A stretch of 64,000 bases of DNA, from assembly GCA_047602425.1 (NCBI GenBank), contig JASGHG010000001.1, forward strand, positions 4,128,001 through 4,192,000, given 5' to 3'. The DNA comes from Nibricoccus sp. (lineage in GTDB: Bacteria; Verrucomicrobiota; Verrucomicrobiia; Opitutales; Opitutaceae). The notes under the pieces were generated by a model that ran no database searches, was not told the origin of the DNA, and worked only from the letters and a program-made list of their open reading frames with translations. Position 1 is the first letter of the stretch, and each line of letters opens with the position of its first letter. Positions 1 to 12,686 of this stretch are shown here, one piece after another. The position numbers and the translations under genes were made by a program.

Positions 1-2
1 CC

Positions 3-1832
3 GCGGGCATTCGCACGATTCGCATACCGGGTGGCTCCCTTTCCGACGAATATCATTGGCGGACGAATACCAATCTGGCCAATATGTGGACTTGGTCCTC
101 GGGCTTCAACAATTTCTCAAACCTGATCACAGGAGTAAACGCCCGGACCTTCGTCACCGTCAACTACGGCACGGGCACACCGGAGGAAGCCGCCGCCTGG
201 GTCGCTTACGCCAACGCCAGTTCGAGCCTTCTCGGCACCGCATCCGACGTGGCCCTCGGTACCGACTCGAAGGGATACAACTGGCAGACCGCCGGCTACT
301 GGTCGAACCTGCGAAACTCCCCAATGCTCGGCGCGAACGACGGCATGAATTTTTTGCGTGTCAGTCGGGCTACGCCTTACGGTTTGAAATATTGGGAAAT
401 CGGCAATGAATGCTACGGTACTTGGGAAACGGATCAACAGGCTGTCGCGCACGATCCCTACACCTACGCGACCCGTGCGAGGGACTACATTGCGAAAATG
501 AAAGCCGTGGACCCGACGATCAAAGTCGGCGTCGTGGCCGTAGCGGGCGAGGATGAAAACGCCAACAACACCAATCATCCAGCGACAAATCCGCGCACCG
601 GCGTCGTGCACAATGGCTGGACGCCCGTCATGCTCACCACGCTCAAGAACCTCGGCGTCACGCCCGATTTTCTGATCTACCACCGTTACGAACAGGCCCC
701 CGCCGTGGATCAGCCCGGTAATCCCGAGGGCGACGCGAAGCTCCTGCAGTCCGCGCTGACCTGGCCGCAGGATGCGGCAAAATTGCGCCAGCAACTCACG
801 GACTACCTCGGCGCCGCCGGCGCGAATGTGGAAATCGTCGTCACGGAAAACAACTCGGTCTACGCCAGTCCCGGCAAGCAGACCACGAGCCTCGTCAATG
901 GATTGTTCCTTGCCGACAGCATCGGCAATGTATTGCAGACCGAATTCAACGCCCTCATCTGGTGGGCGCTTCGCAACGGTCCCTCGAATGGCAACAATAA
1001 CGCAGCCGCGCTGTATGGCTGGCGCAACTACGGCGACTACGGCATTCTCACCAATGTCCCCAGCCCCACCTTTGCAGGCGCTCCCACCACGGCTTACGAA
1101 CCATATCCTACCTACTATGTGATGAAGCTGCTCTCTTACTTTGCCCGTGGAGGCGACACGGTTGTGCGCGCGACGAGCACCAACACGCTTCTTTCGGCCT
1201 ACGCGGTCAAGGCCGCCGACGGTTCGCTGCGTCTGCTGGTGATCAACAAGGACCCGGTAAACACTTACACCGGCACGATCGGCCTCACGGGGTTTACGCC
1301 CGGCACGAATGCCACGCTCTACAGCTACGGCAAAACCCAGGATGACGCAGCCAAACCAACCGGCACCGGCTCGACCGACGTCTCAGTTTCGGCTCTGACC
1401 ATATCTGGCAGCAGTTTCAACACGACCTTCGCGTCCTACTCGGTCAACGTCATTTCCTTGCCGGCATCAACCGGTTCGTCGTCGAGCAGTTCCTCTTCGT
1501 CGAGTTCATCCTCCACCAGCAGTAGTTCGTCCTCTTCCAGTTCCTCATCGAGTTCTTCCAGTTCGTCGAGCAGTTCGTCATCCTCAGGTTCTTCCTCCGG
1601 CGTCGGGCCGAGCAGCGGTCCGACATCCGGCAGTGGCGGCGGCGGCGGACCGGGACTCTGGTATTTCGCCGCATTGGTTGCCGCGGCCGTGCGACACTTG
1701 AGGAAGTGCACATCTTCCCCGCGTAGCCCGGCAAGACGACCGGTCTCGAAACGAGAGCCACGGTCTCGCCGGTTTTCGTTGCTGGTTTATGTGGAAGAAT
1801 ATTGGCAGAAAAATCATCAAAACTGCCGTTAG
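3..1832 (+). CDS. 5'-partial clan GH-A glycoside hydrolase (alpha-L-arabinofuranosidase/GH51-like) with Ser-rich linker and C-terminal Gly-rich/hydrophobic/basic tail
   Basis: Frame is open from position 3 (AGIRTIRIPGGSLSDEYHW...); motifs RIPGG, YWEIGNE, VVTENN; poly-Ser ~1475-1597; GGGGPGLWYFAALVAAAVRHLRK near the end. Confidence 0.75.
   Translation, partial: AGIRTIRIPGGSLSDEYHWRTNTNLANMWTWSSGFNNFSNLITGVNARTFVTVNYGTGTPEEAAAWVAYANASSSLLGTASDVALGTDSKGYNWQTAGYWSNLRNSPMLGANDGMNFLRVSRATPYGLKYWEIGNECYGTWETDQQAVAHDPYTYATRARDYIAKMKAVDPTIKVGVVAVAGEDENANNTNHPATNPRTGVVHNGWTPVMLTTLKNLGVTPDFLIYHRYEQAPAVDQPGNPEGDAKLLQSALTWPQDAAKLRQQLTDYLGAAGANVEIVVTENNSVYASPGKQTTSLVNGLFLADSIGNVLQTEFNALIWWALRNGPSNGNNNAAALYGWRNYGDYGILTNVPSPTFAGAPTTAYEPYPTYYVMKLLSYFARGGDTVVRATSTNTLLSAYAVKAADGSLRLLVINKDPVNTYTGTIGLTGFTPGTNATLYSYGKTQDDAAKPTGTGSTDVSVSALTISGSSFNTTFASYSVNVISLPASTGSSSSSSSSSSSSSTSSSSSSSSSSSSSSSSSSSSSSSGSSSGVGPSSGPTSGSGGGGGPGLWYFAALVAAAVRHLRKCTSSPRSPARRPVSKREPRSRRFSLLVYVEEYWQKNHQNCR
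1727..1776 (+). terminator. Imperfect GC-rich hairpin followed by T-tract (possible intrinsic terminator), overlapping the tail of the GH ORF
   Basis: ccggcaagac...ggtctcg-aaa-cgagagcc...gtctcgccgg then tttt. Confidence 0.4.
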
Positions 1833-1848
1833 GTCCAAAACCGCGATT

Positions 1849-1970
1849 GCCTAACTCACTGGAATCCCGTATCTCTAACGCCATCGCACCCCCTGGATCC
1901 GCCATGCGACCTCACAAAACTTCAATCCCTGATATGCCAACGCTTCGTCCGGCATAATACACTGTTCGGC
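1849..1970 (+). other. Degenerate attC-like site
   Basis: GCCTAAC (1849-1855, RYYYAAC) and GTTCGGC (1964-1970) ending 2 bp before the next ATG; internal L boxes do not pair well. Confidence 0.35.
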
Positions 1971-1972
1971 AA

Positions 1973-2305
1973 ATGAAAGGCGTCTCTATCGCGTCGCTAG
2001 TTTTCGCCGGGCTGCCGCTGGTCATTTATCCGGTAGTTGCGCTGGCGGATATTATGAGTCTCGCAGGACAGTCATCAGGCGCTGAATCTGTCATGTTGAG
2101 TGTCGTTGCTACGACCTGTCAGATCGGCTCGCTCCTGTATCCAGCCGTGTATTTCCTCTGCCTTGCATTGTACCGGAAGAAGATGAAGCAGGATGAGCAG
2201 AAAAGCGCTTTTTGGTTTAGCCTTACACCCATGGCAGTCCTCCTTTTTCTATTTGCGATGTTTTATCTGTGGTCACGCGTGGACCATACAGCATGGGCGC
2301 CTTAA
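1973..2305 (+). CDS. Hypothetical membrane protein (about 3 hydrophobic segments), gene-cassette ORF 1
   Basis: 110-aa ORF preceded by GTTCGGC and followed 6 bp after its stop by the exact complement GCCGAAC. Confidence 0.7.
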   Translation: MKGVSIASLVFAGLPLVIYPVVALADIMSLAGQSSGAESVMLSVVATTCQIGSLLYPAVYFLCLALYRKKMKQDEQKSAFWFSLTPMAVLLFLFAMFYLWSRVDHTAWAP

Positions 2306-2311
2306 GACGGA

Positions 2312-2326
2312 GCCGAACCAGGCGCT
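2312..2326 (+). other. attC site, left part (R'', spacer, start of L''), interrupted by IS110 element
   Basis: GCCGAAC-CAGGC-GCT; joins to ACAGC at 4085 to give L'' GCTACAGC. Confidence 0.7.
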
Positions 2327-2712
2327 CCCCTTTAGGTAAAATCAAGGGGTAAGTTTGATTTTGCCGTCAGGGGGGAGAGGGGCGAGTCCGAGAATGGGCC
2401 TCCAGCTCGTCGGAGGACGAGCCCCGGGGGGCAGGATGTAGCAGGTGGTTTTGGTTACATGAGATGGATATGGTTTTGGCGCTTTAACCAGGAGCCCGGT
2501 CCTCCGCGACGATCCCCATGAGTTGGTCCAGCTTTTGAGGGCTGGCCCGGACGATACTTAAAGGGCGGTAAGACCGGGAGGCCCGCCGTCGGGGCTTTAA
2601 AACATACAGTTGAGCATCAGCGAGGCTGTGCGGAACGGCTGGTGGCCCTCAAGCGGCGGGTTTCCCGGAAAAGCAAAAGTTAATGTCGGCTAAAATAGAT
2701 CAAGGAAGTGGT
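2327..2712 (-). ncRNA. Candidate bridge/seekRNA-encoding 3' non-coding end of the IS110 element
   Basis: ~385 bp with no credible ORF; stems gctcgtc/gacgagc (2405-2422), cccggtc/gaccggg (2495-2578), ccagc/gctgg (2528-2545); short matches to target and donor junction. RNA ends and strand are inferred. Confidence 0.5.
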
Positions 2713-3978
2713 TTAGGCGGCGGAGCGGAAAACGCGCTTCGGGTCGAAGGGTTGGGGCGAGCGTTCAAGGCCGTGGAGCAGTTTGAGGAACTTGCGGGCG
2801 ACCGCGGTCATGGCTTTGCCGCCGCACATGCCGGTGTCGCGTTTGGCGTGGTAGTATTGCCCGTAGAGTTGTCCGTGCACGACGCGTTTGAGGACGGCTT
2901 GGGCGAGGACGTGGCGCAGGCGGGCGCGGCCGCGTTTGGCTTGGCGGAGCTGGCCTTGCATGGTGCCGCTTTGGCGGGGCCGCAGGTTGAGCCCGCCGTA
3001 GCGCCAGAGTTGGCGCACGTGGGCAAAGTCCCGGAGCGGTCCGGTCTCGGCGAGGACACGGGCGAGCATGAAGGGGCTGATCAGGTCGGGATGGGCTTGC
3101 AGGCGGGTGGCGCCGCGGGCGCGCAGGCGTTCGACCAGGGCGATCATTTGCTGGCGGGTGTTGGTTCGGCGGGTGCGCAGCACGGTGAGTTCGGCAAAGA
3201 GGGCGCGCAGGTCCTCGGCGAGCAGGGCCAGCCAGTCGGGGTCGGAGTCGATCAGGGCGCAGCGCTGGGCGTCGGCGAAGAGTCGCTGGATGGTCTTTGG
3301 GCCAACGTGGTGGTTGCGCAGTTTGGCGGTGCAGCGTTCCAGGCCGTCGGCGAGGATCGCGGCGGCGTTCAGGCCGTAGAGTGCGATCGTGGCTTGGGCG
3401 GCGCGGCCTTCGAAGAGCCAGTCGTTTTTAAAGCTCAATTCGGGGAAGAGCGAGAGGAGCAGTTTATGAATCCTGTTTTTACAGCGGGTGGAGTCGCGTT
3501 CGAGCCGGTCGTAGCGGGCGTTGAGTTCGCGCAGGAGCAGCCACTCGCCTTGGAGGGGACGATCGGTCAGGGTTTTGTTCCATTTGGCCAATAGTAAAAT
3601 CGTGCGGGGATCTTTGATGTCGCTTTTGCCGGTATCGTTGTTCTCGACCACTTGCATCTGGTGGACGGCTTCGCCGTTGACCAAGGCGGTGGCGCAGCCG
3701 AGTTGGCGGGCCGCGCGCAGCAGGCGCCGTTCGTATCCGCCGGTGGGTTCGCAGAGGATGCGCACGCCGCCAAGGCCGTGCTGGCGGGCGTGGGTGTTGA
3801 GTTGTTCCAGCCATGAGAGGATGGCCTCATTGCGATTGGCGATATGGCCTTGGTGCGCCTGGGCCCCGAGTTCACCGTACCAGTCCAGTGCTTTTTGCCC
3901 AACGTCGACGGCGATATCCCAGCGAGTTTCCGGTTGCCCGGAGTGCGTTCTGCCATTAAGTGCTTTGTTCGTTATCAT
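2713..3978 (-). CDS. IS110-family transposase/recombinase (DEDD RuvC-like domain plus C-terminal Tnp domain)
   Basis: 421 aa; IAVDVG (D), LCEPTG (E), KSDIKD (D,D); C-terminal GLNLRPRQSG (catalytic Ser position), KRGRARLR and AVARK motifs. Confidence 0.93.
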   Translation of the reverse strand: MITNKALNGRTHSGQPETRWDIAVDVGQKALDWYGELGAQAHQGHIANRNEAILSWLEQLNTHARQHGLGGVRILCEPTGGYERRLLRAARQLGCATALVNGEAVHQMQVVENNDTGKSDIKDPRTILLLAKWNKTLTDRPLQGEWLLLRELNARYDRLERDSTRCKNRIHKLLLSLFPELSFKNDWLFEGRAAQATIALYGLNAAAILADGLERCTAKLRNHHVGPKTIQRLFADAQRCALIDSDPDWLALLAEDLRALFAELTVLRTRRTNTRQQMIALVERLRARGATRLQAHPDLISPFMLARVLAETGPLRDFAHVRQLWRYGGLNLRPRQSGTMQGQLRQAKRGRARLRHVLAQAVLKRVVHGQLYGQYYHAKRDTGMCGGKAMTAVARKFLKLLHGLERSPQPFDPKRVFRSAA

Positions 3979-4084
3979 TGTTAGATTGCGGCTCCGGCTA
4001 AGGAGTGCCGGTTACGTGCTTGTCACCGTCCAGTCCATGCCGGGGCCGCTTCCTTATGTTATCTCATCCGCCTATTAGTAGCAT

Positions 4085-4163
4085 ACAGCGCAACGCCTAT
4101 GATCGTCCATTTTCTTTTTATCCCTGCCCGCTGGTACGGCGTGGCTGACCTGTAACGTTGGCT
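4085..4163 (+). other. attC site, right part (rest of L'', L', R')
   Basis: ACAGCGCAACGCC ... GGCGTGGCTGACC-TGTAAC-GTTGGCT; arms pair with bulged bases; re-joined site is 94 bp. Confidence 0.72.
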
Positions 4164-4175
4164 TAAAAACACGCT

Positions 4176-4457
4176 ATGCGCCTCGGACTGATTTTTATCG
4201 GTATCATACTTATCGTCGGGGGATTTTCCGGCATCAGGAACAACTCGACATATCGCTTATCCCGGACTTACAGCTCTCGTGAGCTTAGGAGTTTGCCGCG
4301 AGAAAAGTGGGGCGACCAGACGGACGATCCAGTGGTGAACTCGCAAGCGATAGGATGGTTAGCGATTGGGTCAGGATGCTTCATAGTGGTCGCGTCGGTT
4401 TCAGTAAGACGACTTCGTTTCCCGCGGGCCAACCAACAACGCTCCACTCGAGAATGA
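4176..4457 (+). CDS. Hypothetical small membrane protein, gene-cassette ORF 2
   Basis: 93-aa ORF with two hydrophobic segments, starts 12 bp after GTTGGCT; complementary GGCCAAC at 4427-4433. Confidence 0.6.
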   Translation: MRLGLIFIGIILIVGGFSGIRNNSTYRLSRTYSSRELRSLPREKWGDQTDDPVVNSQAIGWLAIGSGCFIVVASVSVRRLRFPRANQQRSTRE

Positions 4458-4603
4458 TCATGATGTCTTGTAGTAGCGGAAAGGGACGAACCAATGCCTG
4501 AGGCCAACGGGTAAGGGAAATAGTCGCGGAGAGGGCAGGCTTTGGCGAGCGAAGAGCGCTTACGGAAAGCGATGAGGTCAGGTTTTTTTTAACGGCTAAA
4601 TAA

Positions 4604-4640
4604 AGAAAAGGCCGCGGCTTCTGCCGCGGCCTTTCTTTTT
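4604..4640. terminator. Bidirectional intrinsic terminator
   Basis: aaaggccgcggc-ttct-gccgcggccttt flanked by A- and T-tracts, downstream of the GH74 gene. Confidence 0.8.
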
Positions 4641-4666
4641 GTTCCAAACCGAACGGTTTTGCCCGC

Positions 4667-7600
4667 TCAGAAATGACCTGAGTTTGTGTAGCTCACGCCT
4701 CCGGTCGTGTAGCTGATCGACCAGGTGTCTCCGGTGGAGATGTGCGTGGTTCCGTTGCCATTGGTCGCGGCGTGGAACTGTTTGTTCGTGCCGGCGCCCA
4801 GCGTCTGACCCGAGACGAGGGTGAAGGTATACACGAGACCGTTGTGCGCGTTCGTGATCTGCGAACCGATCGTGTTGTACATGCCGTTATAGACTACGCT
4901 TTGGGTGGGTTGAATGGTAATGGTCACGGTTAGGGCGGTGAGCGGCGACGTATTGGCCAGAACGAGTGATTGATCGTTGTACCAGCCGGAGAGGTTGTTG
5001 GTCACGGAGGCGGTGACACCTCCGCCGCCCGTGCCGCCGCTGCTGGAGGACGAACTCGACGAACTGGAGGAGGACGAACTGCTCGATGAGCTGGAGGAGC
5101 TTGATGACGAGGAACTGCTTGAAGAAGAACTGCTGCTGCTGCTTGATGAAGACGAGCTGCTGCTCGACGAGGAACTGCTCGAGGACGAGCCGCCCGAAGT
5201 ATTCACGGTGAGGGCAATCGTCGTCATGCGCGTGAGCGAGCCGCTGACGCCGGTGACCGTGACGTCGGCTGTGCCAAGGGTGGCGGTGCTACTGGCGGTG
5301 AAGGTGACGGTACTTGTACCTGTCGTTGGGTTCGTGCCGAAGGAGGCGGTGACACCGCTGGGAAGGCCGCTGGCGCTTAAGGTGACGCTGCTAGCGAAGC
5401 CATTCAATTTGTTCACCGTGATGGTCGACGTGGTGGTCGAACTGCGATTGACCGTTGCCGATGTCGGGTTGGCCGAAAGGGTGAAATCGGCGGTGGTGGT
5501 GGCGGTGGAGTAAACGATGCCGCGTCCGTTGGTACCGACGTAACAACGGCCATAGGTGTTGCGATCACCGGTGATGCAAAAGGAGAGGTTGCCGTACTGG
5601 TGAGCGTTGTCGTTGATGCGCGTCCACGAGGCGCCGGCGTTGTCGGATTGATAGATGCCCCAGACGCCGCCGATTTTGCCGGTCAGATAAATTGCCGGGT
5701 AGGTCTGTCCGGTCGCGGCTTTGCCGAACCCGATGGCGTAGGCAAGATCGACGTTGGAGAGCTTCGTAAAGCTCGCGCCAGAATTGGTCGAGTGCCAGAG
5801 ACCGCCCGTGGTGGGGGACGTCGCAACTTGTCCCGCCAGCCAGATATCGCCGGCGAGGCCGAAGACGGCTTTGAACTGTCCATAAGTTGGAAGACCGGTG
5901 GCGGCCGTGGCCGTGAAGGCTGCGCCATTGTTGGTGCTAACGTAGAACGTGCCGTTGAGGAAGCCATAGAACTTTCCGGCGGTGGCACGGTCGGAACGCA
6001 CGCTGGCGCTGGCGGGAATGCCGCTCGAAGCGGTCCAACTGGAGCCGCCCGTGGTGGTGTAGTAAACGCCGACACCGCCGGGGCTCCAGACGATGTTCTG
6101 GTTGTTGACGCAGGAAACGGCCGCCTGCCCGCCGCTGGTGATGCCGGAAGGTTGGGTGCTGGGCTCGTACCAGTTGGCGCCGCCGTCGTTGGAGAGGGCG
6201 ATGCTGCGACCGGGGTCGCCTAAAGTGGTGTTACCGCCATCGCCGGTGCGAACGAGGTTGGAAGGCGCGAGCTCCGAAAAGTCGATGCTGCGATTGGTGC
6301 CCCAAAGGAGTTTGTAGGTACTGGGTTGTACGGTAGTCAGGCTGGTGTGGTTGAAACCACCGATATCGGCGAGCGCGCTGAGCAAGGGAGAACCTGTGGG
6401 CGGACTGATCAGGTCGAGCACGGCGGTTTCCTCGATGCCGAGGACCATGGGCTTGACCGTGAATGTGGCCGTGGTGGCGGGATCCCAGTTGGTGAGATTC
6501 GTGCTGCCGTAGAGCGTGGCGCCGGTGCCGTAGAACATGCGGTTGGAGTTGAACGGATCGATTTGGATGTCGTCGACCATCCAACCGTATTTGAGCGCGG
6601 GCTCGGGGGCGGAGTAGTTGCCGGGTATGGTCAGCCAGGGAGTGACAGTGACGTCGAGAATGCCGCGACGCGACCAGTTGGGGTAACTCGTGTAGTCCCA
6701 AATCTGGCTCCAAGTGGTGCCGCCATTGGTGCTGCGCCAGATGCGGGTGTCGGGCCACCAAGAGTTGAGCGCGCTGACCATGACGGTGGTGGGGACTTGT
6801 TTATCGATGGTGAGGCCGCCGTAGCCGAAGTAGGCGTTGGACGTGTCGGTCGAAGGCACGGGGCTGATGCGTGTCCATACGCCCGTGGCGGTGGCGTACT
6901 TCCAAACATCGCCGAGGCTGCCGTCGTAGGGGCCGGCCTGATTATTGTAGGTCAGATAGAGAAAACCATTCACTGTATCTAAAACGCCGTGGTGCGGCAT
7001 GAAACCGGTGGGCTGACCGGCGACGCGGGTCCAGGACGTGCCGCCATTGGTGGACATGTAGAGGCCATTTTGCAGATCGGCGACGCCGACGTAGATCGTT
7101 TGGGTGGCGCCGCCGGCAGTGCCGGTGCGTTTGTCGAAGGTGACCCAGAGGACGCCGGGCGTGTGGTTGAGGTAGTCGTTGATGTCGCTGGCGGATTGCA
7201 CGTAATTGCCGGCGTTGGGGAAACTCGTGATCTTGCTCCACGTGACGGCGCCATCGGTGCTTTTCCAGAGTCCGTTGCCGTCGGAAGCGGCGTAATAAAG
7301 GATGTTGTCGTTGTTGGGATCGTATTGGAGACGTTCGCCCATGCCGCGGCCGGGCATGTTGCCGCCGATTTTGAATGGCATCTGCGTTTGTGACCACGTG
7401 GCGCCTTGATCGGAAGAGCGGAGCATCACGCCGTTGGAAGGATCCCACGTGTTGGTGTACATGCCGGCGGCAACAACGACCTTGTTGGCATTGAGCGGCG
7501 AGGCGGCGATGCTGGCGCAGCCGAGCAGATGCCAGTCGTCCCAACCGACCCAGTCCATGAGTGGGATCCAAGTGCTGGTGGCTTGATTCCAACGGTAAGC

Positions 7601-7801
7601 ACCGCCGATATCGGTGCGTGCGTAGATGACATTCGCGGAAGCCTGGCTGAACACGACGGCGGGAACATAACCGCCGCCACCGATCTGAACGTTCTGCCAG
7701 GTAGCGGCATGCGCGACGAAAGCGGTGAGGAAAAAGCAGAGCAGGGCGAGCAAGCGCGCGCAGGACGCGCGAAGCGAGGGAACGGCTTTGGGCAGTTGCA
7801 T
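4667..7801 (-). CDS. Secreted GH74 xyloglucanase with Ig-like domain, 50-Ser linker and unassigned C-terminal domain
   Basis: Signal peptide; WQNVQIGGGGYV, YARTDIGGAYRW, GGNMPGRGMGERL, GIEETAVLDL, YVGTNGRGI; repeated SxDxGxTW Asp-boxes; ATG at 7801 preferred to the track start 7912. Confidence 0.9.
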   Translation of the reverse strand: MQLPKAVPSLRASCARLLALLCFFLTAFVAHAATWQNVQIGGGGYVPAVVFSQASANVIYARTDIGGAYRWNQATSTWIPLMDWVGWDDWHLLGCASIAASPLNANKVVVAAGMYTNTWDPSNGVMLRSSDQGATWSQTQMPFKIGGNMPGRGMGERLQYDPNNDNILYYAASDGNGLWKSTDGAVTWSKITSFPNAGNYVQSASDINDYLNHTPGVLWVTFDKRTGTAGGATQTIYVGVADLQNGLYMSTNGGTSWTRVAGQPTGFMPHHGVLDTVNGFLYLTYNNQAGPYDGSLGDVWKYATATGVWTRISPVPSTDTSNAYFGYGGLTIDKQVPTTVMVSALNSWWPDTRIWRSTNGGTTWSQIWDYTSYPNWSRRGILDVTVTPWLTIPGNYSAPEPALKYGWMVDDIQIDPFNSNRMFYGTGATLYGSTNLTNWDPATTATFTVKPMVLGIEETAVLDLISPPTGSPLLSALADIGGFNHTSLTTVQPSTYKLLWGTNRSIDFSELAPSNLVRTGDGGNTTLGDPGRSIALSNDGGANWYEPSTQPSGITSGGQAAVSCVNNQNIVWSPGGVGVYYTTTGGSSWTASSGIPASASVRSDRATAGKFYGFLNGTFYVSTNNGAAFTATAATGLPTYGQFKAVFGLAGDIWLAGQVATSPTTGGLWHSTNSGASFTKLSNVDLAYAIGFGKAATGQTYPAIYLTGKIGGVWGIYQSDNAGASWTRINDNAHQYGNLSFCITGDRNTYGRCYVGTNGRGIVYSTATTTADFTLSANPTSATVNRSSTTTSTITVNKLNGFASSVTLSASGLPSGVTASFGTNPTTGTSTVTFTASSTATLGTADVTVTGVSGSLTRMTTIALTVNTSGGSSSSSSSSSSSSSSSSSSSSSSSSSSSSSSSSSSSSSSSSSSSSSSSSSSGGTGGGGVTASVTNNLSGWYNDQSLVLANTSPLTALTVTITIQPTQSVVYNGMYNTIGSQITNAHNGLVYTFTLVSGQTLGAGTNKQFHAATNGNGTTHISTGDTWSISYTTGGVSYTNSGHF
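5039..5188 (-). repeat. Poly-serine linker (50 consecutive Ser codons)
   Basis: 150 nt of mixed TCN/AGY codons within the GH74 ORF. Confidence 0.9.
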
Positions 7802-8588
7802 GATTTTGGGGGTATTTAAGGGTTCGACAGACGAACCGCGGGCCCTGACCTCGCGCCGGAAACAAGGGTAGAATCCGTGGAATGAGGCTCGAACAAAGCC
7901 CAGATTTAGCATTAAATCAAGGGCAAAGGGCGGAACTGGGGGCAGTCGCGCCGCCAGCGCGACGAGCGAGGAGACCGTTGAGGAATCCGTTCACTGGGCG
8001 CGAAAAATTTGTCCTCGGATTCCGCCTGTAATTCGAACTCAGCGAAGAATCTGTTGAGGCAGCGCGAAAGCTTCGCGCGACACGCTCCGTTGAAATTTTT
8101 GGGCAAGGCATTGTAGCGGGAACCGCGCACGTTCGATGGTGTCGGCAGGCGGACACATCACCTTCGCGACAGAGCTCGCGTTTTAAACGCGCGTTTTTTT
8201 GTGCCCGCGGGCGCCCGCTCGAATCGACGAGCGTGCGTGGAGCACGGACGATTTCGCGCGGCCTTTTCCAATTTGTGAGCTTGCTAATTCGTGCTCGCGA
8301 TTTCCATCGTGTGCAGAAATTTTTCGCGCCCAAATTTGGCGCTTGGCGGCTTTTTTAGCTGGGGGATTGCCCCGATTCGACGTTCGCGAACGCCCCATTC
8401 GAAAAACTTAAGAGCGTGTGAAGCGCGTCTACTCCCTTCGTCAAAAATATCTGTAGCAAAAATCCGAATACAAATTTTTAGCCGGGATTTTTTCAGCTCT
8501 TTGACACGTTCGGTAATTTTTCGCGAAACGTTCTGCGCGCGGAGAAAATGAGCTACTGCACAGTGGATTGCGTGTCGCTGAGGCCCGC

Positions 8589-11327
8589 ATGCAAACGCTC
8601 AAAAAAATTGTTGGCCCGTTAGTTTTAGTTTTTGCGACTCTTCTCGCACGAGTCCCTGCGCAGGCGGCCACGCAGACAGTCGAAGTTGGAAAGTCGGTGA
8701 CGATCTCCGTGTCGGCCGATGGTGCTGCTCCGTTCAGTTATCAGTGGAAAAAAGACGGCGTGAATATCACAGGCGCGACCAACGCCAGCTACACGATTGC
8801 CTCGGCGTCGACGTCGAGCGCGGGCGTTTACACGGCGACGGTTTCGAACTCCTATGGCTCGACCGTTTCCGATAATGCGGTGATTGCGATTGGCAGCGCC
8901 GCAGTCACGGCGCCGACGATCACGACGCAGCCGGTTGCATTGACGGTTGTGCAGGGCAGTGCAGCGACCTTCAGCGTGGCAGCGAGCGGCACTTCGCTCA
9001 GCTACCAGTGGAAGAAGAGTGGCGTCGCAATTTCTGGCGCGACGAACAGCAGCTATACTATTTCAAACACCACGCTCGCGGATGCCGGCAGTTACTCCGT
9101 GACGGTATCGAACACGGCGGGCACGGCGACCTCGCTGGCGGTTGCGCTGACGGTGAACGCGGTTGCCGTTGCGCCGACGATCACGACGCAGCCGACATCT
9201 CTGACGGTCGCGCCCGGCGCTTCCGCGAATTTCTCCGTCGTGGCGAGCGGTTCGTCGCTTTCTTATCAGTGGTCCAAGAACGGCGTAGCGATTTCCGGAG
9301 CCACCAACAGCAGTTGCACGATCGGGTCGGCCACAACCAGCGATGCGGCAAGTTATTCGGTGCGCGTGAGCAACTCTGCAGGCGCCGTCACTTCCTCGAC
9401 CGCCACGCTCACCGTGAGCGCGAGCGTCACTGCGCCGTCGATTACGACGCAACCGGCTCCGCTCACCGTCACGCAGGGCAGCGCGGCCACGTTCTCCGTC
9501 GCGGCAAGCGGCTCCTCACTCAATTATCAATGGTATAAGGGCAGCGTGCCAGTTGCCAACGGCACGGGCTCCAGCGTAACGCTTCCAGCCGTCACTTCAG
9601 CCGACGCGGGCAGCTATTACGTGATTGTGAGCAATTCCGCCGGTACCGCTGTTTCGCTCGTCGTTGGTCTCACGGTGAACGCCGCGGTGGTCACCGCCCC
9701 GACGATTGCAACGCAGCCGGCTTCGCTGACTGTGACGCAGGGCGCGGCCGCCACCTTCACCGTCGCGGCGAACGGCACGTCGTTGAACTATCAATGGTAT
9801 AAAAACGGCGTCGCGATTTCCGGCGCTACAACCATCTCCTACACCCTAGCTTCAACGGTGCTCTCCAGCGCGGGCAGTTACACGGTGGTCGTTTCGAATA
9901 CGGCCGGTTCCGTGACCTCGTCGGCGGCGACGCTCACCGTGAATGCGCCGGTGACCGCCCCGGCAATTACCGCGCAGCCCACGCCGCTGACGGTAGCGCA
10001 AGGCGGCTCTGCCTTGTTCTCCGTCACAGCAACCGGCTCCTCACTGAGCTATCAGTGGTATAAAGGCGGCACAGCGTTGAGCGGCGGCACCAGCAGCAGC
10101 TTCACGATTGGTGCCACGAGTCTGTCTGACGCGGGCAATTACTACGTGATGGTGAGCAATTCCGCCGGCACGGTCACGTCGTCTGTCGTCGGCCTGACGG
10201 TGAACGCCGCCGTGACGACCGCCCCGGCAATTACGAAACAGCCCACCGCGGTGACCGCAACCGCAGGCAGCGCAGCCACGTTCACCGTGACCGCCAGCGG
10301 CACTCCGCTCAACTATCAATGGTACAAAGGCGGCGCGGCACTCGCCGGCGCCACCAGCGCCACCTACACGATCGGAGCTACCGCTTCGTCTGACGCGGGC
10401 AACTATTACGTGATCGTGAGCAATTCCGCCGGCACCGCGGTGTCGCTGGTTGTTCCTCTCACCGTAAGCGCTGCTTCAGCCGCTTCGCCAGACTTTGCCG
10501 AACTCACGCCTACCTCCTACACCGCGCGTGGACAAAACAGCGCCGCGGAAGCAGTCAGCATGCTCTTCGACGGCAAGACCACGACAAAGTGGGTCGACAA
10601 CAGCGCATTCACCTGGGTGCAACTCACCTTCGCGTCACCGACCACACTCGAGGCTTACAGCCTCACGTCGGCCGCAGACACGCCGGGACGCGATCCGGTT
10701 TCATGGACACTTTCGGGTTCCAACGACGGTGTAACGTGGAACGTCATCGACACCCGCTCGGCCGAAACCTGGGCCACACGTCAGCTCACGCGCGACTTCG
10801 TCCTCGCGACAACCTCGGCGGCGTACACCCAGTTCCGATTCAACTTCAACGCGCTCTCGGCGACGGTCACGCAACTGGCTGAAATCGAAATGCACGGTTC
10901 CACCGTCGTCTCGGCCAAGCTCACGCCGTCCACCTATTCGGCGCGCGGTCAGGCGGGCGGCAATTATGCGGTCGCAAAACTCTTCGATGGCAGTGCCTCG
11001 ACGCGGTGGGCCGACTACAGTGCTGCGAGCTGGATCAAGGTTGGCACCTCTGCGCCAACCATCCTGCGCCGCTACACGCTGACTTCGAGCTCGGATAGCG
11101 CTAACTCCGACCCGATTGCCTGGACGCTGTATGGTTCGAACGATGGCACCAATTGGACCGTCATCGAGACGCGCACCGGCCAGTCTTGGAGCAGCCGGAA
11201 ATTGAAACGCGACTTCACGCTCACGACGGCATCGAACAAATACGTTTGGTTCCGCTTCGATTTCCAAGTCGCCTCCGGTTGGACCACCACGCAGCTGGCT
11301 GAAATGGAATTGTTCGGACAACAGTAA
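8589..11327 (+). CDS. Secreted protein with seven Ig-like repeats and two discoidin/F5-8 type C-like domains
   Basis: Signal peptide; repeats APxITxQP...LxYQWxK...DAGxY; two C-terminal units LFDG...TxW...WTLxGSNDGxxWxxI...QLAExE. Confidence 0.85.
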   Translation: MQTLKKIVGPLVLVFATLLARVPAQAATQTVEVGKSVTISVSADGAAPFSYQWKKDGVNITGATNASYTIASASTSSAGVYTATVSNSYGSTVSDNAVIAIGSAAVTAPTITTQPVALTVVQGSAATFSVAASGTSLSYQWKKSGVAISGATNSSYTISNTTLADAGSYSVTVSNTAGTATSLAVALTVNAVAVAPTITTQPTSLTVAPGASANFSVVASGSSLSYQWSKNGVAISGATNSSCTIGSATTSDAASYSVRVSNSAGAVTSSTATLTVSASVTAPSITTQPAPLTVTQGSAATFSVAASGSSLNYQWYKGSVPVANGTGSSVTLPAVTSADAGSYYVIVSNSAGTAVSLVVGLTVNAAVVTAPTIATQPASLTVTQGAAATFTVAANGTSLNYQWYKNGVAISGATTISYTLASTVLSSAGSYTVVVSNTAGSVTSSAATLTVNAPVTAPAITAQPTPLTVAQGGSALFSVTATGSSLSYQWYKGGTALSGGTSSSFTIGATSLSDAGNYYVMVSNSAGTVTSSVVGLTVNAAVTTAPAITKQPTAVTATAGSAATFTVTASGTPLNYQWYKGGAALAGATSATYTIGATASSDAGNYYVIVSNSAGTAVSLVVPLTVSAASAASPDFAELTPTSYTARGQNSAAEAVSMLFDGKTTTKWVDNSAFTWVQLTFASPTTLEAYSLTSAADTPGRDPVSWTLSGSNDGVTWNVIDTRSAETWATRQLTRDFVLATTSAAYTQFRFNFNALSATVTQLAEIEMHGSTVVSAKLTPSTYSARGQAGGNYAVAKLFDGSASTRWADYSAASWIKVGTSAPTILRRYTLTSSSDSANSDPIAWTLYGSNDGTNWTVIETRTGQSWSSRKLKRDFTLTTASNKYVWFRFDFQVASGWTTTQLAEMELFGQQ

Positions 11328-11411
11328 GACCGAAATTCAGGTCGGCGCAGAAACTAAAAACACGTTTTCTGCGCCGGCTGTTCCTTTGTTAAGGCAAGTT
11401 TGGCTCTGTCA

Positions 11412-11444
11412 GGTAGTTTGTCGTTTAATAGATGACAAACTGCC
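11412..11444. repeat. TTGTCA-N9-TGACAA family palindrome
   Basis: ggtagtttgtcgtttaatagatgacaaactgcc. Confidence 0.65.
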
Positions 11445-11621
11445 GGCAGGGCTTTTTAGCAAACCAAGACCGAAGACGCCGAAAAGGGGAGGGCCGACTT
11501 CAACAACGGTCGGACGTCGCGAGTTAGTGGTCGGCGTGGGAATCGACCCTGCGGCGGAAGATTTCCAATGAAGAAGCGGCCTGCTGGTGCCCGGCCGCTT
11601 TTGATTCTGGCAGGAGGTTCG

Positions 11622-12686
11622 TTATTTTTTTGCCAGCTGCCGCATGAGGGTCTGCGCGATGGACTTGAAAATAACGGCGACTTCGCTGTTGGGATCCTTG
11701 ACCACAATGGGTTCGCCGGAGTCGCCACAGGCGCGGATGTCCTCGACGAGGGGAACTTTGCCGAGCAGAACCGTGCCGAGGTCTGCGGCGGTTTTGTCGC
11801 CACCGCCTTCGCCGAACACCGTGTGGCGGTTGCCAATTGGATCGACGAAGTAGCTCATGTTTTCGGCGACGCCGAGAAGCGGGACGTTCACTTTTTGGAA
11901 CATCAGTCCGCCTTTGCGCGCGATCTGCGCGGCGGCGAGCTGCGGCGTGGTGACGAGCACCGCACCGTCGAGCGGGATCGTCTGCACGAGCGAAAGCTGT
12001 GCGTCGCCGGTGCCGGGAGGCAGATCGATCAGAAGGATATCGAGTTCGCCCCAGCGCACATTCTGCACGAACTGTTGCACGGTCTTCATGATCATCGGAC
12101 CGCGCCAGACGACGGGCGTGTTTTCGTCGACGAGGAAACCCATGCTCATGACTTTCACGCCGTGTTTTTCGAGAGGAAGAAGATTGTCGCCATCGACCAT
12201 CGGACGGCTGTTGATGCCGATCATCAGCGGCACGGAAGGACCGTAGATATCGCAGTCCATAAGACCGACACGGCCGGATCGGCCTTGCGCTTCGAGAAGC
12301 TGGGCGAGGGCACAGGCGAGATTGACGGCGAAAGTGGATTTGCCGACGCCGCCTTTGCCGGACGCGATGGCGACGGAGCGCGCGATGCCCGCAGGTGCGG
12401 TGCCGCCACCGAGATTTTGCTGGCCGGGAGCGGGCGGCGTTTTGGCGGCGGAGACGGCGATGTCGACGATACTTGATTTCACGCCGGGCTGGGCGAGCAG
12501 GCATTTTTCAACCTCGGTTTTGAGGTGCAGCGGAATTTTCGGATCGGAAGTGGTGATCGCGAGCGCGACCTTCGCGACACCGTCGGCGAACGCGGCGGAG
12601 CGGACCAAACCGAACGACACGATGTCGCGGCTGAAACCGGGATACTTAACTTGCTTGAGGGCTTCTTTGATCTGGTCGGAGGTCAC
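11622..12686 (-). CDS. mrp: Mrp/ApbC (NBP35-family) Fe-S cluster carrier ATPase
   Basis: ASGKGGVGKST, DCDIYGPSVP, VWRGPM, DLPPGTGDAQL, ENMS motifs. Confidence 0.92.
   Translation of the reverse strand: MTSDQIKEALKQVKYPGFSRDIVSFGLVRSAAFADGVAKVALAITTSDPKIPLHLKTEVEKCLLAQPGVKSSIVDIAVSAAKTPPAPGQQNLGGGTAPAGIARSVAIASGKGGVGKSTFAVNLACALAQLLEAQGRSGRVGLMDCDIYGPSVPLMIGINSRPMVDGDNLLPLEKHGVKVMSMGFLVDENTPVVWRGPMIMKTVQQFVQNVRWGELDILLIDLPPGTGDAQLSLVQTIPLDGAVLVTTPQLAAAQIARKGGLMFQKVNVPLLGVAENMSYFVDPIGNRHTVFGEGGGDKTAADLGTVLLGKVPLVEDIRACGDSGEPIVVKDPNSEVAVIFKSIAQTLMRQLAKK

What the first reader, a model, noticed from the sequence alone, without database searches (positions are those of the whole stretch)
2327..2712. 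Structured ~385-bp 3' non-coding end with target- and donor-matching segments: candidate bridge/seekRNA
Seen: nested stems (cccggtc 2495-2501 / gaccggg 2572-2578 enclosing ccagc/gctgg 2528-2545; perfect hairpin 2405-2422). AACCAGGAGC (2486-2495) matches the attC flank AACCAGGCGC at 9/10, next to GGCGCT (2478-2483), which equals the last 6 target bases before the insertion point. ATCCCC (2512-2517), GTAGCA (2438-2443) and TAAAGGG (2559-2565, opposite strand) match the predicted circle junction AGTAGCAT|CCCCTTTA. CATACAG (2603-2609) matches the other IS-target junction. Known: IS110 guide RNAs carry short target- and donor-binding segments in internal loops. Inference: this region encodes the guide. 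Matches of 6-7 nt can occur by chance and I cannot assign loop roles.
Basis: partly seen in the sequence, partly recalled or inferred. Interest (0 to 1): 0.85.

Follow-up and report, generated by a model that had tools for sequence, protein, structure and literature searches.

The report
Bridge RNA of integron-targeting IS110
This stretch most likely encodes the guide ("bridge") RNA that steers a jumping gene into integron recombination sites; the mechanism is known, but this is a separate lineage whose target and donor appear to share only one base.

Summary
Window 2327-2712 is the 3' non-coding end of a 1758-bp IS110 element (421-aa transposase, minus strand). All nine genomic copies sit at the same attC base. 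Homologues settle it. A two-arm RNA on the minus strand (about 2488-2668) has 33 of 35 pairs with compensatory changes. Four loop segments covary with flanking DNA: target guides 2643-2634 and 2610-2605, donor guides 2558-2553 and 2517-2513. Target and donor share one base (52 of 53), and the next base mostly differs (same in 11 of 53). The target-loop bases beside the core follow the donor (50 and 49 of 53): handshake pairing shifted one base from IS621. The clade targets attC (85 of 108 right flanks). It is distinct from the IS1111-attC element ISPa21 (AU p 6e-13), which inserts 1-2 bases away. Expression and activity are not shown. Verdict: new variant of a known kind.

The parts
2327..4084 (-). 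IS110-family element, 1758 bp including one copy of the single-base core; nine copies in the genome, all in attC sites
   Evidence: empty site in run X1
2713..3978 (-). 421-aa DEDD/SG bridge recombinase (PF01548 + PF02371; D25, E77, D120, D123, S337-G338)
   Evidence: best fold match IS621, E 9e-14; NF033542 110 bits, below the cut-off of 140
2488..2668 (-). Predicted bridge RNA: basal stem (2668-2663 with 2493-2488) closing a target-binding arm (about 2660-2582) and a donor-binding arm (about 2578-2495)
   Evidence: centroid fold of the window sequence; CM hit 2475-2685 minus; basal stem from the single-sequence fold and near relatives by eye, not part of the 35 tested pairs
2634..2643 (-).
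   Evidence: positions +1..+7 complementary in 34-60 of 66 clusters, z 4.4-7.1; guide variant at 2638 in one genomic copy and in run X1
2605..2610 (-). Target loop 3' guide; matches the left target (window 4085-4088) plus the core
   Evidence: positions -5..-1 match in 45-64 of 69, z 5.2-10.1; independent pairs 8-9 same way, 0 opposite
2603..2604 (-). Target-loop handshake bases; follow the donor (IS left end +1, +2), not the target
   Evidence: 50 of 53 and 49 of 53 versus donor; 12 of 53 and 12 of 53 versus target; only 5-6 changes on the tree
2553..2558 (-).
   Evidence: 52-69 of 69 complementary, z 2.7-9.9
2513..2517 (-). Donor loop 3' guide; matches the last four bases of the IS right end (2327-2330) plus the core
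   Evidence: positions -3..-1 match in 55, 55 and 54 of 55, z 7.5-10.2
2511..2512 (-). Donor-loop handshake bases; lean toward the target (weaker signal)
   Evidence: 36 of 53 and 28 of 53 versus target; at 70% clusters 12 of 19 (z 2.8) and 8 of 19 (not above shuffle)
2312..2326 (+). 5' part of the interrupted attC: R'' 2312-2318, 5-bp spacer, first three bases of L''; 2326 is the shared core base
   Evidence: sequence
4085..4163 (+). 3' part of the interrupted attC: rest of L'', L' 4144-4150, R' 4157-4163; 94 bp when rejoined
2333..2345 (-). Right end: 4-bp sub-terminal inverted repeat arm (2333-2336) and -35-like hexamer (2340-2345) of the predicted circle-junction promoter
   Evidence: best junction promoter score 8-11 of 12 in 54 of 58 clusters; no shuffle control; function inferred
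4071..4084 (-). Left end: core base, donor arm, -10-like element and 4-bp sub-terminal inverted repeat arm (4071-4074)
2346..2487 (-). Lineage-variable GC-rich palindromic spacer between the RNA and the right end (includes hairpin 2405-2422); no guide role found
   Evidence: by eye; 3' non-coding lengths 213-512 nt in 58 clusters

Best explanation
The minus strand of about 2488-2668 encodes a bispecific bridge RNA for the adjacent IS110 recombinase. Shown by sequence comparison: (1) a conserved two-arm fold; (2) a target loop whose two guides read both strands of the attC L''-spacer-R'' segment; (3) a donor loop whose two guides read both strands of the joined IS ends; (4) target and donor share one base, and the bases next to it in the target loop follow the donor. 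Inferred from IS621 and IS1111 work: the excised circle forms a promoter across the joined ends, transcribes transposase plus 3' RNA, and the RNA is processed and bound. The recombinase then cuts the strand that carries the shared T just 3' of it and exchanges strands. The new pairs formed at the two positions beside the core drive insertion forward. The geometry mirrors IS621 (long guide first, short guide plus handshake second), with the site inverted relative to the gene. attC specificity comes largely from guide sequence, which each lineage has tuned to its host's attC.
For: Structure: 92.7% of cells paired versus 64.5% shuffled and 30-45% slid; 33 of 35 pairs compensatory; G-U versus A-C counts 173 to 42 favour the minus strand. 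All four guides covary at 90% and 70% clustering, with the DNA junctions called without the guide being tested. In an unbiased scan of 25,480 RNA-column by DNA-position cells, 7 of the top 9 are predicted guide or handshake pairs. In the host, all 9 occupied attC sites score 12.5 or more of 14 against the guides, versus 7 of 33 empty sites (six IS-junction rows dropped from its 39). IntI-type genes flank two arrays. Mechanistic steps rest on PMC11208160, PMC11208158 and PMC13626964 (passages and named sections) and PMC11187229.
Against: No RNA data: expression, ends and protein binding are not shown. The shuffles ignore kinship. Tree-aware pairs were significant only for target -2 (p 0.008); target +7 gave median p 0.22, the donor-loop handshake 0.125, and the target-loop handshake had only 2-3 pairs. 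The 191-nt window RNA alone folds only z -1.5 versus shuffles. 23 of 108 right flanks lack GTT at +8, and 22 of 68 rejoined sites failed my attC test. No circle junction was seen in four laid runs (contigs cannot show absence).
Confidence: 0.9

Rival explanations
1. Seek-type use: only the target arm (about 80 nt) is the working RNA; the donor arm is a precursor part or serves a secondary step, and the protein reads the IS ends.
For: IS1111 elements yield abundant 70-100 nt seekRNAs, and the 82-nt form sufficed for ISEc11 (PMC11187229). A TBL-only RNA supports one transfer step in CazIS110-1 (10.1101/2025.10.25.684509, passages).
Against: Donor-loop covariation is the strongest signal (54-55 of 55; top cell). 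The terminal repeats are only 4-5 bp. A short RNA could still coexist with the full one.
Confidence: 0.07
2. The one-base core and shifted handshake are an artefact of where I placed the ends, or of shared ancestry; the true core is two bases, as in IS621.
For: Only 5-6 changes on the tree underlie the handshake columns, and the pair test is underpowered. Donor +1 is also read by the donor-loop 5' guide in many members, so indirect coupling is possible. Three loci were left out of the left-end calls by hand.
Against: Nine genomic copies and an empty site fix the ends. Target equals donor at 0 in 52 of 53, at +1 in 11 of 53 and at -1 in 9 of 53. The match is identity with the donor base in three base types, not just association.
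Confidence: 0.2
3. attC targeting needs the folded attC hairpin (structure gate) besides guide pairing.
For: Positions outside the guides are conserved in flanks (T at +10 in 93 of 108, T at -8 in 86 of 109). Insertion is next to the L'' extrahelical base (my reading of the sequence). ISPpu10 uses a target stem-loop (10.64898/2026.03.19.712850, passages).
Against: Those positions are conserved attC features anyway. In the host, most sites scoring 12.5 or more are attC by eye, so sequence alone nearly explains it. About a third of rejoined sites fail the attC test.
Confidence: 0.3
4. The region is only a structured DNA end or terminator, and the matches are chance.
For: Single-sequence matches are at chance level.
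Against: Four-way covariation, strand bias of G-U pairs, and conservation down to about 35% protein identity.
Confidence: 0.02

Closest known systems
IS621 / ISCro4 (IS622) bridge RNA systems (PMC11208160, PMC11208158, PMC13626964; passages and named sections read)
   Same: DEDD + SG recombinase (best structural match). Two internal loops for target and donor, each reading both strands. Invariant T on the cut strand by analogy. Handshake bases that pair with the non-cognate DNA. Short terminal repeats. Junction promoter.
   Different: RNA lies 3' of the gene, not in the left end. Guide order is reversed relative to the gene. Protein is 421 aa versus 326 aa and about 18% identical. One shared base instead of CT. 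Handshake at the two positions directly beside the core (IS621 positions 8-7 by analogy) rather than 7-6. Target is attC, not REP.
IS1111-attC group: ISKpn4, ISPst6, ISPa25, ISPa21 and their seekRNAs (PMC11187229 read in part; targets from Table 1 of PMC13604230; Tetu & Holmes 2008 and Post & Hall 2009 seen only as citations)
   Same: Same attC end and same orientation (antisense to cassettes). 3' non-coding RNA. Top-strand guide before bottom-strand guide. The element at the ISPa21 position of pME-1a also shares a single A between target and donor (my reading).
   Different: Those have 330-350 aa proteins and 11-13 bp terminal repeats; this clade has about 420-440 aa and 4-5 bp. BLASTP to the ISPa21-position protein gives E 3.6. 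Monophyly with it is rejected. The RNA model does not hit its 3' end. The insertion point is 1-2 bases further from R''.
IS110-group elements with a downstream non-coding region (noted in PMC11187229, Fig. 1b text; ISPpu9/ISPpu10 literature)
   Same: Large IS110-type transposase without long terminal repeats, and a 3' non-coding region in some members.
   Different: Nearest annotated plasmid IS110 proteins are only 24-30% identical and fall outside the clade. The row of Durrant 2024 Supplementary Table 1 that resembles this clade by motif has no ISfinder member listed (file cut when stored).

Membership tests
IS110 family bridge recombinase system | N-terminal DEDD RuvC domain and C-terminal SG domain | tested here: met
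   PF01548 and PF02371; E77, D120, D123, S337, G338 invariant and D25 nearly invariant; fold matches IS621. NF033542 score 110 is below its cut-off of 140.
IS110 family bridge recombinase system | Conserved structured RNA in a non-coding end with two internal loops | tested here: met
   CM hit just downstream of the transposase in 141 of 169 loci, 72 of them in the training set
IS110 family bridge recombinase system | Loop bases covary with both strands of target and of donor | tested here: met
   kinship-aware tests only partly powered
IS110 family bridge recombinase system | RNA is expressed, bound by the recombinase and required for movement | not testable with these tools
   no RNA holder listed
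IS110 family bridge recombinase system | Circular intermediate with a junction promoter | tested here: inconclusive
   -35 and -10-like hexamers across rejoined ends in most clusters, no shuffle control; no junction contig in four runs
IS621-type bridge system | Dinucleotide core shared by target and donor; RNA in the left end | tested here: not met
   one shared base: 52 of 53 at 0, 11 of 53 at +1; 5' end 80-121 nt versus 3' end 213-512 nt
IS1111 group / IS1111-attC | Sub-terminal inverted repeats of 11-13 bp with 7/3-bp extensions | tested here: not met
   4 bp here, 4-5 bp in relatives
IS1111 group / IS1111-attC | Transposase of 330-350 aa within the IS1111 clade | tested here: not met
   421 aa; clade support 100, ISPa21-position protein groups with an IS4321-like protein (97-98); AU p 6e-13 on a quick tree with long branches and one attC-group representative
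IS1111 group / IS1111-attC | Long non-coding region downstream of tnp; top-strand guide 5' of bottom-strand guide | tested here: met
   definition from PMC11187229
IS1111 group / IS1111-attC | Insertion at a fixed position in attC, antisense to the cassette | tested here: met
   9 of 9 own copies; 85 of 108 right flanks with GTT at +8; 46 of 68 rejoined sites attC-like versus 7% of shuffles; point differs by 1-2 bases from ISKpn4/ISPa25

The most novel reading that the evidence does not exclude
This is a second, independently evolved clade of integron-targeting bridge recombinases, spread over several phyla. In it the first base of the IS621 two-base core has become a handshake position, so the enzyme recombines sites that share only a single T. 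That would loosen the core-matching constraint of current bridge editors and bias the reaction further toward insertion.
Probability: 0.55. Interest if true: 0.68.

Novelty: new variant of a known kind. Interest (0 to 1): 0.5.

Why it matters
It gives a base-resolved, naturally reprogrammed map of all four guides and the handshake positions for an IS110 clade with no ISfinder member found, ready to test at the bench. It indicates that RNA-guided elements converged on the same arm of attC at least twice, which bears on how integron arrays are disrupted or frozen: about a fifth of this host's attC sites found are occupied (9 of 42). If the one-base core holds up, it widens the sequence space for programmable recombination. 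The underlying principle, bridge/seek RNAs and attC targeting by IS1111, is already published.

Tried and rejected
Rfam scan of window 1-12000: no hit in the region. Single-protein scan of genome contigs: no relative; the alignment query worked. Internal promoter or terminator in 2200-2800: none found. Expression: no RNA holder listed. Circle junction: no joints in X1-X4 contigs, which is no evidence of absence. Stand-alone RNA copies in the host: none; the 9 CM hits are the 9 elements. DNA hairpin folding of rejoined attC sites by minimum free energy was uninformative, so a motif test was used. Exact-motif search of Durrant Supplementary Table 1 found nothing; shorter motifs found one clade-like row. 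PMC5034289 gave no IS1111-attC record. Tree-aware pair tests were underpowered for both handshakes and for target +7. The careful tree did not finish; quick trees were used. Literature searches showed no paper describing a non-IS1111 attC-targeting clade or a one-base core; subscription journals, figures and bioRxiv supplements could not be seen. No earlier scan finding matched by place or sequence.

Full report
OBSERVATION. The ORF at 2713-3978 (minus, 421 aa) carries PF01548 and PF02371, so 2327-2712 is its 3' non-coding end and a co-transcribed RNA would be the minus strand. The genome holds nine copies. All have the same ends, and all are flanked by the two halves of an attC site. One base (window 2326/4084) is common to both junctions. 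A contig of run X1 carries an empty related attC that joins 2325 to 4084. Integron-integrase genes lie beside two of the arrays; one scored above the TIGR02249 cut-off.

HOMOLOGUES. An alignment of 41 of the 120 listed protein hits retrieved 80 metagenome and 77 genome loci. Genome searches added 8 loci from other genomes and 4 own copies, giving 169 loci. From 105 distinct 3' regions I aligned 73, including the window. RNAalifold gave 37 pairs; I removed two lone pairs inside the loops. The remaining 35 are paired in 92.7% of cells, against 64.5% in shuffles and 30-45% when slid, and 33 show changes on both sides. G-U pairs outnumber A-C pairs 173 to 42 on the minus strand. A covariance model hit just downstream of the transposase in 141 of 169 loci; 72 of these were training rows. 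It hit nine places in the host genome, all elements. The fold is a target arm (about 2660-2582) and a donor arm (about 2578-2495), each with one large internal loop. In this element a basal stem (2668-2663 with 2493-2488) closes both. Of the 141 loci, 55 have a named origin, mostly Thermodesulfobacteriota (20) and Verrucomicrobiota (13). A profile search shows a discrete clade: full-length members score above about 260 bits and the next full-length proteins 190 or less.

GUIDES. Left ends were called from a terminal motif without the RNA (109 calls; L002, L130 and L087 left out by hand). Right ends were called in two ways, so that each test avoided circularity: from the donor guide, blind to the target (108 calls), or from the flank, blind to the RNA. 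With one locus per 90% protein cluster:
- RNA 2641-2635 is complementary to target +7..+1 in 34-60 of 66 (z 4.4-7.1). 2643, 2642 and 2634 pair with near-invariant bases (many by G-T wobble) and carry no covariation.
- RNA 2610-2606 matches target -5..-1 in 45-64 of 69 (z 5.2-10.1).
- RNA 2558-2553 is complementary to the left end in 52-69 of 69.
- RNA 2516-2514 matches the right end in 55, 55 and 54 of 55.
Most positions hold at 70% clusters (n 19-25); target +2 falls to z 1.5. In an unbiased scan of 25,480 cells on 40 elements, 7 of the top 9 cells are these guide or handshake pairs; phylogenetic background fills much of the rest. Kinship-aware pairs support target -2 (8-9 same way, 0 opposite, p 0.008). 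They are not significant for target +7 (median p 0.22). In the host, the nine occupied sites all score 12.5 or more of 14 against the guides, versus 7 of 33 empty array sites (after dropping six rows that are IS junctions; many sites are near-duplicates). One genomic copy and the element in run X1 carry a change at 2638 that perfects pairing to the commoner attC variant.

2603-2609 and 2512-2517 are true guides plus handshake bases. 2486-2495 is the 3' strand of the basal stem and is kept in none of the 18 near loci from other genomes. 2478-2483 is unconserved, and 2559-2565 is scaffold beside a guide. 2438-2443 and the hairpin 2405-2422 lie outside the conserved RNA (by eye).

CORE AND HANDSHAKE. 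Target and donor share the base at 0 in 52 of 53 elements, but at +1 in 11 and at -1 in 9. The two target-loop bases after the core match the donor (50 and 49 of 53), not the target (12 and 12). The donor-loop equivalents lean to the target (36 and 28 of 53; weak at 70% clusters). In IS621 the core is CT at positions 8-9, the top strand is cut after T9, handshake guides pair with positions 6-7 of the other DNA, and the bottom cut is staggered (PMC11208158, passages and section 12). Handshake pairing biases toward insertion (PMC13626964, Discussion). By analogy the shared base here is T9 on the opposite strand and position 8 has become a handshake position. This step is inference. It rests on only 5-6 changes on the tree, with 2-3 independent pairs, none opposing. 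A one-base overlap is not unique: the element at the ISPa21 position of pME-1a shows one too (my reading of one copy).

TARGET. GTT lies at +8 in 85 of 108 target-blind right flanks; 13 of the other 23 have it one base off, by eye. 46 of 68 rejoined sites pass an attC symmetry test, versus 7% of shuffled flanks. The cut is inside L'', next to its extrahelical base (my reading; attC box names are recalled). ISKpn4, ISPst6 and ISPa25 use the same segment and orientation, with an insertion point 1-2 bases nearer R'' (Table 1 of PMC13604230).

RELATION TO KNOWN FAMILIES. It works like an IS621 bridge system and has the RNA position and guide order of IS1111 (PMC11187229, introduction to results, discussion and supplement passages). 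It fails IS1111 membership on repeat length (4-5 bp), protein size and tree position. The clade has support 100, and holding it together with the ISPa21-position protein is rejected (p-AU 6e-13; quick trees, long branches, one attC-group representative). BLASTP to that protein gives E 3.6, and the RNA model does not recognise its 3' end. The modelled protein matches IS621 and ISCro4 best. One row of Durrant 2024 Supplementary Table 1 resembles this clade by motif and lists no ISfinder member (file cut). Seven literature searches showed no description of this clade. Tetu & Holmes 2008 and Post & Hall 2009 were seen only as citations, and figures and bioRxiv supplements were not visible, so core lengths drawn in figures could bear on the novelty claim.

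NOT SHOWN. Transcription, RNA ends, protein binding, circle formation and activity.

VERDICT. This is a well-resolved bridge RNA of a separate attC-targeting IS110 lineage, with a probable one-base core: a new variant of a known kind, interest 0.5.

Noticed in passing
G000:C1:290757-292064 (L203): A 1.3-kb IS3-like element (two overlapping ORFs, integrase-core motifs by eye) has inserted into the donor-loop 5' guide of one copy, probably inactivating its RNA.
   Followed up: partly
G000:C1 about 5137500-5138700 (L178): A second, unrelated 370-aa IS110 transposase sits inside the same cassette array, between two copies of this element.
   Followed up: partly
window 1848-1900, 4420-4530: Further attC-like starts flank the 1973-2305 and 4176-4457 ORFs (no Pfam match); this looks like a small cassette cluster. 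The only tyrosine recombinase in the window (about 15.8-16.9 kb) is XerD-like, not IntI.
   Followed up: no
L172 (NZ_CP041734, ISPa21 position): This IS1111-attC element also shares a single A between target and donor, and by eye its 3' end has a donor-matching second loop, which would make its long seekRNA a full bridge RNA.
   Followed up: partly
L131, L043, L041, L105, L061, L051, L045, L161, L072, L154 (+7); L022, L090, L081 (+9): In 13 loci the attC GTT is one base off the usual +8 register, suggesting tolerated bulges or imprecise joints.
   Followed up: no
L135, L139, L144, L153: A sub-branch has long inserts in the apical stems of both RNA arms.
   Followed up: no
L123: A clade member with intact RNA and an attC-like site lies on a contig binned as Halobacteriota; possible archaeal occurrence or mis-binning.
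   Followed up: no
L103, L164/L168: Tandem or nested copies with a duplicated RNA region.
   Followed up: no
window 84-1832 and 4667-7912: Two convergent secreted-glycoside-hydrolase-like genes with long poly-serine linkers flank the cassette cluster (names by eye, 84-1832 had no Pfam hit).
   Followed up: no
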